Virus record (IMG/VR): IMGVR_UViG_2706794662_000007
From: a virus
Lineage: Duplodnaviria > Heunggongvirae > Uroviricota > Caudoviricetes
DNA: 64,000 nt
Strand: one strand, 5' to 3'
The first letter of the stretch is position 1; each line of letters opens with the position of its first letter. Below, one piece after another: positions 57,188 through 62,892 of the stretch. A program made the translations under genes and the position numbers. The notes beneath the pieces are model-generated. The model was not told where the DNA came from. It did not search any database and saw only the letters and a program-made list of their open reading frames with translations.

Positions 57188-58892
57188 TCATTTAACGCGT
57201 TTGAAAACGTATACGCTGACTGTGATCCCTGTGTCTTCAAACTCGTTGGTAAACGACTTCCCTCTGGCATAAACGTAATTATCCATCGTCATCCAGTCCA
57301 GTATTGGCGCNNNNNNNNNNNNNNNNNNNNNNNNNNNNNNNNNNNNNNNNNNNNNNNNNNNNNNNNNNNNNNNNNNNNNNNNNNNNNNNNNNNNNNNNNN
57401 NNNNNNNNNNNNNNNNNNNNNNNNNNNNNNNNNNNNNNNNNNNNNNNNNNNNNNNNNNNNNNNNNNNNNNNNNNNNNNNNNNNNNNNNNNNNNNNNNNNN
57501 NNNNNNNNNNNNNNNNNNNNNNNNNNNNNNNNNNNNNNNNNNNNNNNNNNNNNNNNNNNNNNNNNCCAGATCGGCGTTAATATAGGCCAGAAGATCCCCA
57601 CGTCCGGCTTGAGGCTCCAACAGCTTCTCACCAGGCTTCAATTCAGTGGCTCTGGCAACGTACTCAGCAATCAAGCGTGGGGTAGGGTAGAACTGGTGTG
57701 ATTTTGTATCCGGTATTAAACCGGTAGCCACAATCGTATTTAGCGTATGGCCGATCTCATACGGGAACTGCCAGTGCTTTTTCTCCTGCACGCCGCCAAT
57801 GAAGCTCAGTGTGCGCTCAAGCTCTTCCACCTGCGACTTCTGGAGAGCTGAATCAGAGAAGTACCATACGCCTTTGTCTTTGCTCAATCGCCCGTCACGA
57901 AGCGCAGTGCGAACCGGCACGGAGATCGTCTTCTGGATTAACCCGAACTGCTTTGGTGCCCGTGTTTTTGGCGCAGTTCGGCATGGCGCGGGGATTGCAG
58001 CAGGCATACTGTAAGCCAGCACCTCATTCAACTTCCAGGCCACGTCAGGATGTATTTCAAAGTGAACGTTGCCGTTCTTGAACATCTTCACGCGCATCAG
58101 ATTTCCATCGACGTTCATCCAGTCACCGGTCTGGCAGTCGTTTGCCCGATACGCAGCTGATAGCACCTCAGCAGTGCGGTTGATGGTAATAAATTCTTTG
58201 TGCGCGAAGAAATGAAGCAAGACACGCAGATCGTCGATGTAGTCCTCTTTGCGATAGTTCACGCTAACGCTGTCACGCCAGAAATCAGAAATGCAGTCAG
58301 CGATTATCAGACGCTCGCTGAAACCGTTTGTCTTATTTGTCTTGTGCGCAGGACTCAGCGCCTTAAACAAGCCATACACGCGCTCAGAGAGATATTTGTG
58401 CCTGTCATTCAGCAAATTAAGCATCGTTGGTATGACCGTTTCTGCTTTGAACTCCGGTACACCAACGAACTCTTTAACCTTCATCTGATAGCCGGTTCTG
58501 TCAGTTTTGATGACTTCCTGCTTGCCCTCGATAAATAGCTCACGCCACTCGTCGCGACGGGAAGCTGGCATGATCAGCAGAACGTTAGTCATATCCGTAA
58601 CCTTCCTCCAGTACTCGGCCCAAATATTCTGTTTCACCCATTCCAGATCGACGTTATCCAGCCAGACTCGATTCAAACGTGAGCGATCTTCATCTGGTCG
58701 GTGGTTTAGTCGAAGCAGGCGATTAATCATGTTGTGGCGTTCATCGCCATAAACGAAGTCGTGTACCTGATACATGAAGGAGATCTCTTTCTCGCACTCG
58801 GCCACAATTTCGTGGATGACGTTCATTTCCTGTCGATAGTCGATAGCAGTGTTTGAGCTGGCATCGCCCATGATGGAAAGGGCTGTATTCAT
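57188..58892 (-). CDS. gamma-class N6-adenine DNA methyltransferase-like protein with ~390-aa N-terminal extension (interrupted by N-run; C-terminal frame uncertain)
   Basis: motif X-like QFYPTPR and motif I-like LEPQAGRGDL just before mask. Confidence 0.5.
57311..57565. other. run of 255 N
   Basis: literal n characters. Confidence 1.
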
Positions 58893-58995: not shown

Positions 58996-59670
58996 CTAAT
59001 CATACTTGGATGTATTTATAACCAGGACTTTATTTGTATATAGTTTTTTTACATTCCATGTAACATTACTTGAATACCATTCACCATTATATATTTGGTT
59101 TCCCGTTGCGCCTGTCATTGTTACGTATACAGGTCTGTCGTAAGGTGTTCGTCTATAGTTATATACTCCAACCATTGCAGGCATTATCGCACACGGGTAT
59201 CCCATATTTATGGTAAATTGAGGATTTGTAATAGTGATAATCTCTGCATCAAGGGGCATCATCTCACCGTGATATACCATTTTACCTGCGCTATTATACA
59301 TGGCAATACCATATCCTGAATGTGGTAACACCATATCAGAAAAAGCATAAACTGTTATCGTTCCGGGGTTTCCTCCAACCTGATTCAGTCTGAGAACATT
59401 ATACCCATCTCTAAATTCATGAACGAACATCATATTCGCCTTATTACTGCTTTTTATAAAGAAAAAACATGATTTGTTCGACGGTATTGAAGTCTTAAAA
59501 ACAGAACCTTTAGACGTGGACATTGTCCCCCTATTAATCAAATTTTGCGGTGTAAATTCTGGACTCATCCACACATTACCATTTGACTGAGTAATTGACA
59601 TCCCGAACATTATTGTTATCCCCAATATGTATATATATAAGATCCAAGTCCCTTGTATAAATTTGACCAA
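58996..59670 (-). CDS. hypothetical protein in strongly AT-rich island, N-terminal TM segment
   Basis: ORF track; overlaps 59616..59897 in another frame. Confidence 0.35.
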   Translation of the reverse strand: MVKFIQGTWILYIYILGITIMFGMSITQSNGNVWMSPEFTPQNLINRGTMSTSKGSVFKTSIPSNKSCFFFIKSSNKANMMFVHEFRDGYNVLRLNQVGGNPGTITVYAFSDMVLPHSGYGIAMYNSAGKMVYHGEMMPLDAEIITITNPQFTINMGYPCAIMPAMVGVYNYRRTPYDRPVYVTMTGATGNQIYNGEWYSSNVTWNVKKLYTNKVLVINTSKYD

Positions 59671-59897
59671 CTTACTGTATTGCCGTTAATAGTGATAGTT
59701 GGTGTAGGTATATTTACATGGTTATCGTTATTTAAAGGCATCAATGAGCACACAGCATGTAATGATTTGCCAGGTGGTGGATTTGGGTAAGTCTTAGAGC
59801 CTGACGTGGTTGTAAATCGATCAAGAAAAAAAATAGGAGTAAGGAAGCCGGTAACGTTAACTCCCTTATTATTGTAGATCCCTGTACCGTATGCCAT
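59616..59897 (-). CDS. hypothetical ORF, possibly 5' part of a frameshifted gene continuing into 58996..59670
   Basis: 55-nt overlap in different frames. Confidence 0.3.
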   Translation of the reverse strand: MAYGTGIYNNKGVNVTGFLTPIFFLDRFTTTSGSKTYPNPPPGKSLHAVCSLMPLNNDNHVNIPTPTITINGNTVSWSNLYKGLGSYIYTYWG

Positions 59898-59951: not shown

Positions 59952-60521
59952 TCAATTAGAGCTTTGAAAGGCTTTGTGTGGCTGTGTTGCGAGGTTATGT
60001 CGATGGCTTAACTCACGCATCATGTCTTCAAGGCGACTCTTTGTGTCGTCGAGTTGGTCAGCCATTGCTCCTAAAAGCTGACGAACTACCATCGGATCGT
60101 CGCTGTTTAGTGATGGCATTTTATAACCCGCCTGAGAAGACATCAGATTGAATGCTGACATCAACATCGTTAGAGAGGATTTAAGCCCGGCAATTTCACG
60201 ATCTTTGCTGGCAATAATCGTCTCACTTTTGTTACTGTCATGAGTTCCTTGAGTCTCGATCACCATATCCAAAGTCTCTTGCAACTTATCAGCTCTCTGT
60301 TTTTCAGCAAGATAATGAACACCGAAATGATGTGCTAAAGCTACAACCTGAGTTGGCTCTTCAAAGGTGGACTCAAAATTAAGTGCTGTAACCACTCTCT
60401 CAAAAATGGAAACGTCTTCTATTCCTCGAAGAATGGCTAACATTTTGACAAGTTCATTAGCATCCATTTCTTCGAATAGGGCGTTTTGTTCATCAGCTAT
60501 TGCTTTGCATTTCTCGCACAT
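59952..60521 (-). CDS. hypothetical protein, 189 aa
   Basis: ORF track; family-1 motif 17 nt upstream. Confidence 0.45.
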   Translation of the reverse strand: MCEKCKAIADEQNALFEEMDANELVKMLAILRGIEDVSIFERVVTALNFESTFEEPTQVVALAHHFGVHYLAEKQRADKLQETLDMVIETQGTHDSNKSETIIASKDREIAGLKSSLTMLMSAFNLMSSQAGYKMPSLNSDDPMVVRQLLGAMADQLDDTKSRLEDMMRELSHRHNLATQPHKAFQSSN

Positions 60522-60818
60522 ATGTTTTCCTTAATGCTTAAACAAGTTGTTTTCTTATTGGCTTTATTGTGATGTGGCATAAAAGGGGAGCAAGCTAAAC
60601 GTAAAGGTGCAAACTCTCTATTTCGGTCAACGAAACACAATGGCCATTTGACCCTTGTCATTAACACGTTGCTTTACGGACTAGCGGATAAGCGAAGTAG
60701 ATCGCCAGACCAATGAGGACGCCATCAGAAATGACAGACATCATCTTTCCCGTAAAATCCACCAACACCGCCATCACCAGAAGAGCAATGACGGTCACAA
60801 GCCGGAATCTCTCAAGCA

Positions 60819-61244
60819 TTAGAGATAAGCATCCAGTGACAACTGAAGCGCCTGGGCGATCTTTTTCAGCGCCTGCTCTTCTGGTTCATCAATGCCGTCT
60901 TGGTCGGCAATATCAAGGCACAGACAAAGTACATCTACTGCATCATCAGTCCCGGCCACATCCGCCAGCTCACGTAAAGCCTGGGCATTAGCACGGCGCG
61001 GTGAGGCTTCGTATTGAGCGCGGATATTGGCGCTCATCTGGGCTATCTCACCAGCAAAAGGAGAAAATGCAGGCAGAGCTGCAATTGTTTTCTCAAGAAT
61101 GGAAATTTCTTTTGCATCGCATGTACCGTTGGCATAGGAGATCATGTACCCACCCCACACGGTGGCTTCAACCGCATCACGGTTCTCCATTTTTTTGACT
61201 TCGATAACTGCTTTACGAGTTTTCTTTTTGAAGAAACCTAACAT
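60819..61244 (-). CDS. TerB-like protein candidate
   Basis: 141 aa; N-terminus MLGFFKK and acidic D-x-D-E C-terminal helices resemble TerB. Confidence 0.4.
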   Translation of the reverse strand: MLGFFKKKTRKAVIEVKKMENRDAVEATVWGGYMISYANGTCDAKEISILEKTIAALPAFSPFAGEIAQMSANIRAQYEASPRRANAQALRELADVAGTDDAVDVLCLCLDIADQDGIDEPEEQALKKIAQALQLSLDAYL

Positions 61245-61337
61245 GTGTTTTCCTTTTGTTATTGGTCAAAACAAGTTGTTTTCTAGTTAAATAAATTGCT
61301 TACGCAAAGACGGTCAATGCATATGCACTAACAACCG

Positions 61338-61526
61338 TCAGAAATAACCAAGTACCGAACCGACTGGAAAAATAAAAATCCCAACTACACGAGCCAAGGT
61401 CATGCCAGCCTGAAACTGGAGATCGCCAGAGCAAACAAGTTTTATAATGTTCGATACCCAACCGGCGGCCATGAGGGCAAGAATTGCCAGCCAAATTTTT
61501 CCAAAGTGATTTGAAAACCAGTTCAT
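61338..61526 (-). CDS. small membrane protein, 62 aa
   Basis: two hydrophobic helices. Confidence 0.3.
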   Translation of the reverse strand: MNWFSNHFGKIWLAILALMAAGWVSNIIKLVCSGDLQFQAGMTLARVVGIFIFPVGSVLGYF

Positions 61527-61774
61527 ACAACCGCCTTAGTCACAGCATGATCCTGAGTAACTGGATGAACTTGAGGTATCGCATCCACCGTCATCCCATC
61601 CAGAGTGACAGGTCGCTCTACTGGAGTGGTGGTAATTGTCGTCGACGGAGGTGTGGTGATGGATGAATCCGGCATCAAAAGGCTCTGACCGGCTGGAACG
61701 GCTACCGTCGCCAGTGAAACTATAATGAGAACGTAGGCCATTGGTTTCAGCCTCTTTCTTTGAAAATTTTCCAT
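61523..61774 (-). CDS. small secreted/membrane protein, 83 aa
   Basis: N-terminal hydrophobic segment MAYVLIIVSLATVAVPA. Confidence 0.35.
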   Translation of the reverse strand: MENFQRKRLKPMAYVLIIVSLATVAVPAGQSLLMPDSSITTPPSTTITTTPVERPVTLDGMTVDAIPQVHPVTQDHAVTKAVV

Positions 61775-62051
61775 TCGAACTGTCCTTGTTGTTTTTCTCC
61801 TTCACTAAAGGCCGTGCATTTTTCGCTTCGCGTGAAGAACCAGAGGCAACAATCGCCCACACGTTCGCAACAACTGACGCTTGATTATCTAAACGTTCAT
61901 TCAGCAACCGAACGGTAGTCTCTAGTTCATCAAGGCGTGACATAACACGACCGCTAAATAATTCGGCCAAAATTTGACGTAAAGAACGAGGACGTTTAGT
62001 TACAGAAGTGAAATAGGTTTGACGTGCCATGTGGACTCCATCCAGTGTCAT
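61536..62051 (-). CDS. hypothetical ORF; only N-terminal ~85 aa look protein-like
   Basis: overlaps 61523..61774 in another frame. Confidence 0.25.
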   Translation of the reverse strand: MTLDGVHMARQTYFTSVTKRPRSLRQILAELFSGRVMSRLDELETTVRLLNERLDNQASVVANVWAIVASGSSREAKNARPLVKEKNNKDSSNGKFSKKEAETNGLRSHYSFTGDGSRSSRSEPFDAGFIHHHTSVDDNYHHSSRATCHSGWDDGGCDTSSSSSYSGSCCD

Positions 62052-62175
62052 AAAGAGTTGCGGCTGGCAATCGCCAGCCGCCTTTCTCGTTCCATCCTGG
62101 AACTGTGTCTTACCGACACATTGTCATCCTGACGCCGATAAGATACATGATTTATAATGATAGGTAAACACTTAC

Positions 62176-62769
62176 TTACTGTTTGTTATAAACAAAACCA
62201 ATATCTTTCTTGTGAGGCATATCTGCTGCTGAAAAAGCTGCGATCTTCGCGAGTCGATCACATATTTCATTTTCACGATGCCCGGCGTGACCTTTAACCC
62301 ACTTCCAGCGAACATTATGTCGACTTGCGGCCTCATCCAGACGCTTCCACAGATCAACATTCTTTACCGGTTTTTTGTCAGAAGTCATCCATCCATTGCG
62401 TTTCCACCATTTCATCCACTGTGTCATGCCGTTTTTCAGATACTGGCTATCAGAGTGCAAAATAACGTTGCATGGATATTTCAAACGCTCCAGCCCGATA
62501 AGTGCCCCCATCATCTCCATGCGGTTATTGGTGGTGCTATGAAAACCATCTGAGAACTCGCGTTCCTCGCCACGATACTGGAGAACGATACCGTAACCGC
62601 CCGGGCCACCCGGATTTTTAAGGCAAGAGCCATCACTAAAGATTTTCACGGTTTTAAGCTGGGGATTGAACTCTACGACAGGCGTTGTGGGATTGGTGCG
62701 GGGAGAATTTTTGTTTTTGTCTTTTTTGCGAGTTTTTGCTTGCGGTCGGGCTGGTGTCTTCGTTGTCAT
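62176..62769 (-). CDS. ribonuclease HI homologue with basic N-terminal extension
   Basis: FSDGSC, NNRME, HSDSQY, ENEICD segments match RNase HI catalytic DEDD positions; start at [10 protein letters not shown]. Confidence 0.8.
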
Positions 62770-62892
62770 ATAAACTCCTGAATCAAGCGCCGCGCCGATT
62801 TTTCCTCGCGCGTGCGCACACGCGTGCGTGTTAATAATTATTAAAATAAACAAATTACTTCCCAGAACAGGTTTTTATAAACCTGAACTGAA

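What the first reader, a model, noticed from the sequence alone, without database searches (positions are those of the whole stretch)
60819..62051. TerB-like protein followed by small membrane proteins
The 141-aa product has the N-terminal MxxFFKK start and paired acidic helices characteristic of TerB-like domains. It is followed by two or three small hydrophobic ORFs, one pair overlapping in different frames. This could be a stress- or membrane-associated accessory module.
Basis: inference. Interest (0 to 1): 0.4.

Follow-up and report, generated by a model that had tools for sequence, protein, structure and literature searches.

The report
Phage tciA-tciB cassette beside dual-coding genes
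The TerB-like gene is the already-annotated phage P1-type tciA/tciB accessory pair, of unknown function, sitting in an SSU5-like phage-plasmid; the small ORFs next to it form a separate, family-specific module that includes a conserved gene-within-a-gene which standard annotation misses.

Summary
All genes in the finding lie on the minus strand. The 141-aa ORF (61244..60819) is a TerB-family protein:
- Pfam TerB 26.2 bits against a cut-off of 24.4.
- 80% identical to phage P1 TciA.
- AF2 model (pLDDT 88) is closest to TerB-family structures.

It is a 52-aa, two-helix DUF3927/TciB gene (60819..60661) whose ATG overlaps the tciA stop. tciA-tciB is a known mobile two-gene cassette, untested for function. 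It occurs in P1, lambdoid phages and SSU5-like phage-plasmids, was linked in 80 of 80 loci, and is non-essential in P1.

Twenty of 77 related loci keep ORF164 but lack tciAB.

The overlapping pair appears to be genuinely dual-coding. In the overlap, the third codon positions of ORF164 become the most conserved (0.245 against 0.519 upstream; p = 3e-5). This fits selection on the embedded +1 ORF83, an exported or signal-anchored Thr/Pro-rich protein. ORF164's own frame stays open more than chance allows.

Verdict: TerB call right, module picture partly wrong, tciAB ordinary. The embedded gene is modestly new.

The parts
60819..61244 (-). tciA-like gene: a 141-aa soluble TerB-family protein. It has a basic N-terminus (MLGFFKKKTRK) and two acidic A-D/N-G...E motifs (residues 38-46 and 113-123).
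60661..60819 (-). tciB-like gene: a 52-aa DUF3927 protein predicted to form a two-helix membrane hairpin. Its ATG overlaps the tciA stop by 1 nt (TAATG), which suggests translational coupling.
   Evidence: Pfam DUF3927 1.9e-12. phrog_1470 'TciB-like' 7.8e-21. Two hydrophobic stretches. Immediately downstream of tciA in 80 of 80 IMG/VR loci. Codon-position diversity 0.357/0.209/0.547. The overlap is read from the sequence.
61267..61283 (.). Palindromic motif GAAAACAA(C/G)TTGTTTT, 23-39 nt upstream of the tciA ATG. It is followed by AAGGAAAACAC-ATG. Putative operator or promoter element of the cassette.
   Evidence: 23 strand matches in the window against 0.40 expected. The same motif plus SD precedes tciA, ORF189 and Rha genes in other lineages.
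60540..60554 (.). Second perfect copy of the same motif, upstream of ORF189 (ATG at 60521). The two copies bracket the tciAB cassette.
61338..61526 (-). ORF62: a 62-aa predicted two-helix membrane protein. It is a backbone gene of SSU5-like phage-plasmids. Its ATG overlaps the ORF83 stop (ATGA).
   Evidence: phrog_6006 2e-25. Two hydrophobic stretches. Only 10 clusters, those with long contigs being about 106-113 kb. Codon-position diversity 0.246/0.129/0.392. ATGA or GTGA junction in all 52 unique sequences.
61523..61774 (-). ORF83: a gene embedded in the +1 frame of the 3' half of ORF164. It has a basic n-region, a 14-15-residue hydrophobic segment and a Thr/Pro-rich tail, so it is a predicted exported or signal-anchored protein. 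It has its own SD and ATG.
   Evidence: In the overlap, the third codon positions of ORF164 are the most conserved: 0.245 against 0.519 upstream, and 0.143 in the first third; chi-square p = 3.3e-5. In the first third, +1-frame amino-acid identity is 0.73 against 0.58 for the ORF164 frame. The ATG aligns in the same column in 10 lineages. An SD is conserved in the 9 lineages examined. phrog_15659. Rarely annotated.
61536..62030 (-). GGAG sits 5 nt before the ATG at 62030.
   Evidence: phrog_10411 1.5e-80. 680 plasmids by tblastn. Only 17 representative clusters among 1.84e9 proteins. The frame stays open with P = 0.02-0.09 per lineage given the ORF83 protein. The C-terminal motif is conserved in 10 lineages. 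The N-terminal half shows normal coding diversity, 0.334/0.235/0.519.
62060..62081 (-). GC-rich hairpin (9 bp, 8 GC) between RNase HI and ORF164. It is terminator-like but has a weak T tract.
62176..62853 (-). Context: the RNase HI gene upstream. The annotated homologues are shorter, 197-215 aa.
   Evidence: Pfam RNase_H 1.2e-44. Annotations.
59952..60521 (-). Context: ORF189, a backbone hypothetical gene that directly follows ORF62 in elements lacking tciAB.
   Evidence: phrog_5508. Synteny.

Best explanation
The window is part of an SSU5-like phage-plasmid. It is 100% identical to Escherichia phage CMS-2020a and 96-98% identical to phages Cyrano and PhiR41_1. The region holds two independent units in a co-directional block of early DNA-metabolism genes.

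**Unit 1: the tciA-tciB cassette (61283..60661)**
- It is a self-contained moron: a palindromic regulatory site, an SD, tciA, and a translationally coupled tciB.
- TciA is a cytoplasmic TerB-fold helical domain carrying two acidic A-D-G...E motifs.
- TciB is a 52-aa two-helix inner-membrane hairpin.
- Proposed mechanism (inferred, not shown): TciB, helped by TciA's basic N-terminus, holds the metal-binding TerB domain at the cytoplasmic face of the inner membrane. This parallels the reported TerB-TerC complex.
- There the pair would buffer or sense membrane or ion stress while the phage genes are expressed. Possible outputs are protection against membrane-damaging agents, colicins or superinfecting phage, or an effect on cell division.
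- It is accessory and non-essential.

**Unit 2: ORF164, embedded ORF83, and ORF62 (62030..61338)**
- This is a backbone module confined to SSU5-like elements.
- About 240 nt are read in two frames: the C-terminal half of the soluble ORF164, and in the +1 frame an exported or signal-anchored Thr/Pro-rich ORF83.
- The ORF83 stop overlaps the start of the two-helix membrane protein ORF62, so ORF83 and ORF62 are probably co-translated envelope proteins.
- The function of this module is unknown.
For: **Identity of the element**
-.

**TerB family**
-.

**TciB as a membrane hairpin, and the start/stop overlap**
-.

**Obligate tciA-tciB linkage**
- 80 of 80 loci.
- The same arrangement in P1 and in a lambdoid phage.

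**The two units are separable**
- 13 loci have ORF164 and ORF62 without tciAB, and 7 have ORF164 only, out of 77.
- 31 of 80 tciAB loci lack ORF164/ORF62.

**Shared regulatory motif**
- A palindrome plus SD lies in front of each cassette.

**Literature**
- tciA/B/C are non-essential in P1 by CRISPRi (PMC10695390).
- A TerB-TerC complex is reported in PMC11003894, citing Turkovicova 2016.

**Dual coding**
- Inversion of the codon-position diversity pattern.
- Synonymous-codon randomisation.
- Both frames are intact in 73 of 75 loci.
- The +1 ORF persists in two more diverged lineages.
- SD and ATG are conserved.
- The ATGA junction is conserved.
Against: - No experiment links TciA or TciB to any phenotype. 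The tellurite/colicin/cell-division label was transferred by homology (annotation).
- The Pfam score is only just above its cut-off.
- No PDB sequence match was found.
- The window copy has Asn at position 39, where at least 90% of homologues have Asp in the first acidic motif.
- The TciA-TciB interaction and metal binding were not tested.
- Given the ORF164 protein, the +1 frame would be open by chance with P = 0.08-0.65. Openness alone therefore proves nothing for ORF83.
- My within-lineage dN/dS-type test had no power, and its control was biased.
- There is no expression or proteomic evidence.
Confidence: 0.7

Rival explanations
1. The TerB gene and the small ORFs at 61338-62051 form one stress or membrane accessory operon.
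For: The ORFs share a strand and lie close together, with a 93-nt gap between ORF62 and tciA. They co-occur in 57 of 77 SSU5-like loci.
Against: - tciAB has its own palindrome and SD.
- tciAB is present or absent independently of ORF164/ORF62.
- In P1 and lambdoid phages, tciAB has entirely different neighbours.
Confidence: 0.1
2. ORF83 is a chance open frame and only ORF164 is a gene. This is how PGAP and most annotators treat the region.
For: The Ser/Gly/Asp/His-rich composition of ORF164 leaves the +1 frame open with P = 0.08-0.65 under synonymous randomisation. ORF83 is rarely called.
Against: - In the overlap, the third codon positions of ORF164 are the least variable, not the most: 0.245 against 0.519 upstream, and 0.143 in the first third.
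- The +1 frame shows the pos3 > pos1 > pos2 pattern, and higher amino-acid identity than the ORF164 frame in the first third, 0.73 against 0.58.
- The ATG aligns in 10 of 10 lineages and a purine-rich SD is present in the 9 examined. An ATGA or GTGA junction with ORF62 is kept wherever ORF62 is present.
Confidence: 0.15
3. ORF164 and ORF83 are joined by programmed +1 ribosomal frameshifting into a fusion protein, and are not two separately initiated genes.
For: Databases and loci contain several ORF164-N to ORF83-frame fusion proteins: P0149, P0155, P0157 and P0159, and L059 and L080.
Against: - The switch points are scattered, at about residues 63, 73, 116, 120, 130 and 146. This is what random indels or sequencing errors produce.
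- ORF83 has its own conserved SD and ATG.
- I made no dedicated search for a slippery or stall site.
Confidence: 0.05
4. ORF164 and ORF83 are an Rz/Rz1-type embedded spanin pair, or another lysis device, with ORF62 acting as a holin-like partner.
For: The gene is embedded in the +1 frame, the inner product is proline-rich and exported, and a small two-helix membrane protein sits adjacent.
Against: - ORF164 has no transmembrane segment; its maximum KD19 is 0.77.
- ORF83 has no lipobox cysteine in most lineages.
- The closely related phage Cyrano has a separate holin-endolysin-Rz-Rz1 cassette about 50 kb away.
- The locus sits among early DNA-metabolism genes.
Confidence: 0.05
5. tciAB is an anti-phage defence or superinfection-exclusion system, or a colicin-immunity system, and is not a general membrane-stress buffer.
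For: ter operons containing terB are associated with phage inhibition and colicin resistance. tciAB is a variable, frequently lost moron in P1-like elements.
Against: - There is no PADLOC hit.
- terB is only one of several genes needed for those ter phenotypes.
- In P1 the genes lie in the C1-repressed ban operon. In a lambdoid phage they lie between Q and the holin. Both placements suggest expression during lytic growth, not in the lysogen.
Confidence: 0.2

Closest known systems
Phage P1 tciA-tciB-tciC (NC_005856 P1_gp074-076)
   Same: TciA is 80% identical. TciB is a DUF3927 homologue (phrog_1470), with the same 1-nt overlap between the tciA stop and the tciB start. Both are accessory genes of a phage-plasmid.
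   Different: There is no tciC here, and no hydrophobic small ORF after tciB. The neighbours and the regulatory context differ: P1 uses the C1-controlled ban operon, whereas here there is a palindromic site shared with other early genes.
TerB of terZABCDE tellurite-resistance operons (Pfam PF05099; TerB-TerC complex)
   Same: Same Pfam family and fold type. Both pair a soluble TerB domain with an integral membrane partner.
   Different: There are no terC, terD, terZ, terA or terE genes nearby. The partner is a 52-aa hairpin, not the multi-pass TerC. The Pfam score is marginal. A tellurite phenotype has never been shown for TciA.
Rz/Rz1 spanins, and phiX174 D/E (genes embedded in the +1 frame of another phage gene)
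   Same: ORF83 lies wholly within the +1 frame of the 3' half of ORF164. It encodes a small envelope-targeted, Pro/Thr-rich protein.
   Different: The outer protein is not membrane-anchored. The inner protein has no lipobox. The pair is not in the lysis cassette. The comparison with phiX174 E rests on my own knowledge only.
T4 Imm/Sp-type small membrane superinfection-exclusion proteins (architecture only, from my own knowledge)
   Same: A single-pass, N-terminally anchored periplasmic protein sits next to a two-helix small membrane protein.
   Different: There is no sequence similarity and no evidence of function. This was not tested.

Membership tests
TerB family (Pfam PF05099) | Match to the family HMM above the curated gathering score | tested here: met
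   26.2 bits against a cut-off of 24.4, E 1e-5, covering residues 33-136. Most close homologues carry a precomputed PF05099 hit.
TerB family (Pfam PF05099) | All-helical TerB fold resembling solved family members | tested here: met
TerB family (Pfam PF05099) | Paired acidic (A-D-G...E) motifs thought to bind a metal | tested here: inconclusive
   The motifs lie at residues 38-46 and 113-123. G40, E46, D111, D114 and G117 are invariant among 27 homologues. The window copy has N39 where at least 90% have D. Metal binding itself is not testable here.
TerB family (Pfam PF05099) | Tellurite, colicin or phage-inhibition phenotype | not testable with these tools
   There are only homology-transferred labels. 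P1 tciA/B/C are non-essential.
P1-type tciABC module | A tciA orthologue followed immediately by a DUF3927 tciB with overlapping stop and start | tested here: met
   Linked in 80 of 80 loci.
P1-type tciABC module | A third small hydrophobic gene, tciC | tested here: not met
   There is no hydrophobic ORF between 60661 and 60521. No TciC match was found in the 80 tciA loci.
ter operon (terZABCDE) | Neighbouring terC, terD, terZ, terA or terE genes | tested here: not met
   The neighbours are RNase HI, ORF164, ORF62, DUF3927 and ORF189. The whole Cyrano genome has no ter genes annotated.
Two-component spanin (Rz/Rz1) for ORF164/ORF83 | An outer gene with an N-terminal transmembrane domain, an inner gene with a lipoprotein signal and Cys, and a location in the lysis cassette | tested here: not met
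   ORF164 has a maximum KD19 of 0.77. ORF83 lacks Cys in most lineages. A separate holin-endolysin-Rz-Rz1 cassette is annotated in Cyrano. Only the embedded +1 arrangement is shared.
Known anti-phage defence systems (PADLOC-DB v2) | HMM match to a defence-system protein | tested here: not met
   None of the five ORFs gave a hit. ORF189 gave only a 0.012 chance-level hit.

The most novel reading that the evidence does not exclude
ORF164 and ORF83 are a real, translated dual-coding gene pair. ORF83 and ORF62 are coupled envelope proteins, and ORF164 is a cytoplasmic Cys/His/Ser-rich partner. Together they form an undescribed module conserved in hundreds of clinical Enterobacteriaceae SSU5-like phage-plasmids and missed by standard annotation. 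It could act in superinfection exclusion, in envelope remodelling, or in control of the timing of phage development.
Probability: 0.5. Interest if true: 0.45.

Novelty: new member of a known kind. Interest (0 to 1): 0.3.

Why it matters
The tciA-tciB call matters little. It is a correctly recognisable, already annotated moron, and its function has been an open but minor question since the P1 genome paper.

Two points have some value:
- tciAB is always a two-gene unit, a TerB domain plus a tiny membrane hairpin, carried by very different phages. That gives a minimal system for asking what a TerB domain does at the membrane.
- SSU5-like phage-plasmids are common in clinical E. coli, Klebsiella, Salmonella and Enterobacter (680 plasmids hit). 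They carry a conserved embedded gene that PGAP does not annotate, so gene inventories of these elements are incomplete.

Tried and rejected
- **Within-lineage OLGenie-style dNN/dSN and dNN/dNS estimates.** There were too few differences, and the fake-frame control also gave ratios below 1. I discarded these in favour of between-lineage codon-position diversity.
- **Sequence search of the PDB with TciA and with an ORF164 profile.** Nothing was significant; ORF164 gave only coiled-coil noise.
- **NCBIfam and PADLOC.** Nothing useful.
- **Rfam and tRNA scans of the window.** Nothing.
- **Spanin hypothesis for ORF164/ORF83.** Rejected.
- **Homology of P1 upl/plp to ORF62/ORF83.** The P1 proteins are not hydrophobic and lie on the opposite strand. 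I did not pursue this.
- **Programmed frameshifting.** The frame-switch variants have scattered junctions, so they are treated as indels.
- **The 76-aa ORF at 61300..61530 overlapping ORF62.** It is not conserved, so it is treated as spurious.
- **The 171-aa start at 62051.** It is not supported by an SD or by the homologues. The ATG at 62030 is preferred.
- **The PGAP label 'BRCT domain-containing protein' for one ORF164 homologue.** Pfam does not support it.
Full report
**1. What is there**

In the direction of transcription the order is:

| Gene | Coordinates | Notes |
|---|---|---|
| RNase HI | 62853..62176 | Pfam 1.2e-44 |
| GC-rich hairpin | 62081..62060 | |
| ORF83 | 61774..61523 | +1 frame of ORF164 |
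| ORF62 | 61526..61338 | its ATG overlaps the ORF83 stop as ATGA |
| 93-nt spacer | | |
| 141-aa TerB-like gene | 61244..60819 | |
| 52-aa DUF3927 ORF | 60819..60661 | its ATG overlaps the TerB stop by one base (TAATG) |
| ORF189 | 60521..59952 | |

Kyte-Doolittle profiles predict:
- two hydrophobic helices in the DUF3927 protein;
- two in ORF62;
- one N-terminal hydrophobic segment in ORF83;
- none in ORF164 or in the TerB-like protein.

Only two of them are hydrophobic.

**2. The element**

The region is 100% identical to Escherichia phage CMS-2020a (109 kb). It is 96-98% identical to phages PhiR41_1 and Cyrano. These belong to the SSU5/pHCM2-like phage-plasmid group, on the basis of their size, gene content and IncFIB/RepA typing and of the literature.

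Cyrano's annotators already labelled the two genes 'P1 TciA-like' and 'P1 TciB-like'. The locus lies in a long co-directional block of early DNA-metabolism genes. These include RNR, ThyX, DHFR, Pol III epsilon, Dam, RNase HI, and further on DUF4942 and Ead/Ea22.

**3. The TerB-like gene is a tciA orthologue**

Evidence for the TerB assignment:
- Pfam TerB scores 26.2 bits against a gathering cut-off of 24.4.
- PHROG 632 'tellurite resistance' scores 2.8e-61.
- The protein is 80% identical to P1 TciA. Relatives occur in lambdoid, P1-like, SSU5-like, jumbo Erwinia, Pseudomonas and Vibrio phages.
- Close homologues carry PF05099 and are named TerB family.
- An AF2 model built from a 27-sequence alignment is confident: pLDDT 88, pTM 0.85, six helices.

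Weaker points:
- A plain sequence search of the PDB found nothing.
- NCBIfam found nothing.

The protein has two acidic A-D-G...E motifs, at residues 38-46 and 113-123. The window copy and its sub-lineage (P0001, which stands for 63 member sequences) have Asn39 where at least 90% of homologues have Asp. Purifying selection is strong, with codon-position diversity of 0.114/0.051/0.473.

**4. The real partner is tciB**

- The 52-aa ORF matches DUF3927 (1.9e-12) and PHROG 1470, 'TciB-like'.
- P1 has the same 1-nt stop/start overlap, followed by tciC.
- A lambdoid phage carries tciA-tciB between Q and the holin.
- In 80 of 80 IMG/VR loci with a TciA relative, a TciB homologue lies directly downstream. 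Thirty-one of these loci lack ORF164/ORF62.
- No tciC equivalent is present here.
- A single database protein (P0085) is a TciA-TciB fusion produced by a shift at the overlap. This is possibly an assembly error.

**5. Two separable units**

Of 77 loci encoding an ORF164 homologue:
- 57 also carry tciA, and 56 of these also show tciB; the remaining locus ends too soon after tciA to tell;
- 13 have ORF164 and ORF62 followed directly by ORF189;
- 7 have ORF164 only.

Annotated examples are pRHB41-C15_2, pEh17_2 and CP057631. One diverged lineage (L162) has ORF164/ORF83 and tciA but no ORF62.

A near-palindrome, GAAAACAA(C/G)TTGTTTT, followed by AAGGAAAACAC-ATG, precedes tciA. The same arrangement precedes ORF189, and also the Rha genes of other lineages. 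The motif is strongly over-represented in the window, with 23 strand matches against 0.40 expected. Its two perfect copies, at 61267-61283 and 60540-60554, bracket the tciAB cassette.

I read this as modular cassettes, each made of a regulatory site, an SD and a gene. On that reading tciAB is a facultative insert between ORF62 and ORF189.

**6. The overlapping pair**

Both frames are intact in 73 of 75 related loci. They are also intact in two further, more diverged lineages.

Openness alone is weak evidence for ORF83. When the ORF164 protein is held fixed and its codons are randomised, the +1 frame stays open with P = 0.08-0.65. The reverse test is more telling. When the ORF83 protein is held fixed, the ORF164 frame stays open with only P = 0.02-0.09 in each of seven lineages. 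ORF164 is therefore read to its conserved C-x-SGW(D/N)...C(C)D end.

The decisive signal is mean pairwise diversity by ORF164 codon position, measured across 10 lineages:

| Region | pos1 | pos2 | pos3 |
|---|---|---|---|
| ORF164 5' half, upstream of the overlap | 0.334 | 0.235 | 0.519 |
| Whole overlap | 0.379 | 0.299 | 0.245 |
| First third of the overlap | 0.351 | 0.215 | 0.143 |
| Last third of the overlap | about equal at all three positions | | |

- The upstream pattern is that of an ordinary gene.
- The overlap differs from it with chi-square p = 3.3e-5.
- In the first third, the pattern is exactly that of a gene read in the +1 frame. This stretch encodes the basic and hydrophobic N-terminus of ORF83.
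- The 8-lineage analysis agrees.

Amino-acid identity supports this. In the first third it is 0.73 in the +1 frame against 0.58 in the ORF164 frame. In the last third the order reverses, to 0.58 against 0.68.

Other supporting features:
- The ORF83 ATG aligns in the same column in all 10 lineages.
- A purine-rich SD (AGGA, GGAG or GGGA) lies 8-9 nt upstream in all nine lineages examined.
- The ATGA or GTGA junction with ORF62 is kept wherever ORF62 is present.

I conclude that roughly 240 nt are dual-coding. ORF83 is called only sporadically in databases, and PGAP omits it.

**7. What the upstream module is not**

- It is not a spanin pair. ORF164 has no transmembrane segment. ORF83 has no lipobox cysteine in most lineages. 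Cyrano has a separate holin-endolysin-Rz-Rz1 cassette.
- It is not a known defence system.
- Programmed frameshifting is unlikely. Database proteins that fuse the ORF164 N-terminus to the ORF83 frame switch at scattered positions, as random indels would.

The family is narrow:
- 17 representative clusters among 1.84 billion proteins;
- 680 plasmids, all Enterobacteriaceae and nearly all non-mobilizable, with record sizes of about 105-115 kb in most of the 60 records listed;
- ORF62 homologues form only 10 clusters, whose longest contigs are about 106-113 kb wherever they exceed a few kb.

The function is unknown. A soluble Cys/His/Ser-rich protein combined with a coupled pair of small envelope proteins could fit superinfection exclusion or envelope modification. 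That is inference only.

**8. Mechanism proposed for tciAB**

Shown:
- the TerB fold;
- a membrane-hairpin partner;
- overlapping stop and start;
- obligate linkage of the two genes;
- independent mobility of the cassette;
- its own regulatory site;
- non-essentiality in P1.

Inferred:
- TciB, together with the basic FFKKK N-terminus, holds the metal-binding TerB domain at the inner membrane. This is analogous to the reported TerB-TerC complex.
- There the pair would modulate membrane or ion stress during phage gene expression.

The genomic contexts suggest expression during lytic development and not in the lysogen. In P1 the genes lie in the C1-repressed ban operon. In a lambdoid phage they lie in the Q-dependent late region. 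Here they lie in an early block. The 'tellurite/colicin/cell division' label remains untested.

**9. Verdict**

- The TerB assignment is correct.
- The picture of 'followed by small membrane proteins' is partly wrong, both in direction and in membership.
- tciAB is a known, ordinary accessory cassette of unknown function.
- The one modestly new observation is the conserved embedded gene ORF83 within ORF164, in a module specific to SSU5-like phage-plasmids.

Noticed in passing
window 61267-61283, 60540-60554, and about 13 other sites (1296, 4530, 32990, 33017, 38206, 42345, 43108, 44010, 44497, 46060, 46946, 46997, 50840, 55976): The near-palindrome GAAAACAA(C/G)TTGTTTTC is strongly over-represented, with 23 strand matches against 0.40 expected. 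In several lineages it sits about 20-40 nt upstream of start codons and is followed by AAGGAAAACAC-ATG. It is likely an operator or promoter element of the SSU5-like early genes.
   Followed up: partly
window 62060-62081: A perfect 9-bp (8 GC) hairpin lies between RNase HI and ORF164. It is terminator-like but has a poor T tract. Its role is unknown.
   Followed up: no
window 61128-61130 (TciA residue 39): The window's TciA and its sub-lineage (P0001, which stands for 63 member sequences) have Asn where at least 90% of homologues have Asp in the first A-D-G acidic motif. This could alter metal binding.
   Followed up: partly
window 57279-58892 (minus strand): The 537-aa ORF, a homologue of the DUF4942/methyltransferase gene of related elements, contains a run of X in translation. 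That means a masked stretch of N in the window sequence.
   Followed up: no
L059 and L080; proteins P0149, P0155, P0157, P0159: Natural or assembly-derived single-base frame switches fuse the ORF164 N-terminal part to the ORF83 frame. They occur at scattered positions. Because of the overlap, any such indel swaps the two reading frames.
   Followed up: partly
P0085 (P1-type locus, not in the window): A 196-aa database protein is an in-frame TciA-TciB fusion with both PF05099 and PF13064. It is created by a shift at the TAATG overlap and is seen on a single contig. It is a possible error, but it is consistent with functional linkage.
   Followed up: no
L008 (K. oxytoca plasmid) and six similar loci; L162: Some lineages keep ORF164/ORF83 but have lost ORF62. 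In L008 a large opposite-strand gene follows. In L162 tciA follows directly. ORF62 is therefore dispensable for maintaining the overlapping pair.
   Followed up: partly
L006 1822-2316 (WP_255091772.1): PGAP names one ORF164 homologue 'BRCT domain-containing protein'. The window's ORF164 gave no Pfam or NCBIfam support for this.
   Followed up: partly
literature: PMC9600943: In pSLy3-type phage-plasmids, the 'DUF3927 family' and 'tellurite/colicin resistance' genes are listed among the genes mapped around antibiotic-resistance insertion loci. This suggests the neighbourhood may be a cargo hot spot.
   Followed up: no
window 59616-59897 and 58996-59670 (minus strand): Downstream of ORF189 lie a 93-aa ORF, annotated in Cyrano as 'putative outer membrane protein', and a roughly 200-aa hypothetical ORF. 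Neither has a Pfam match. I did not examine them.
   Followed up: no
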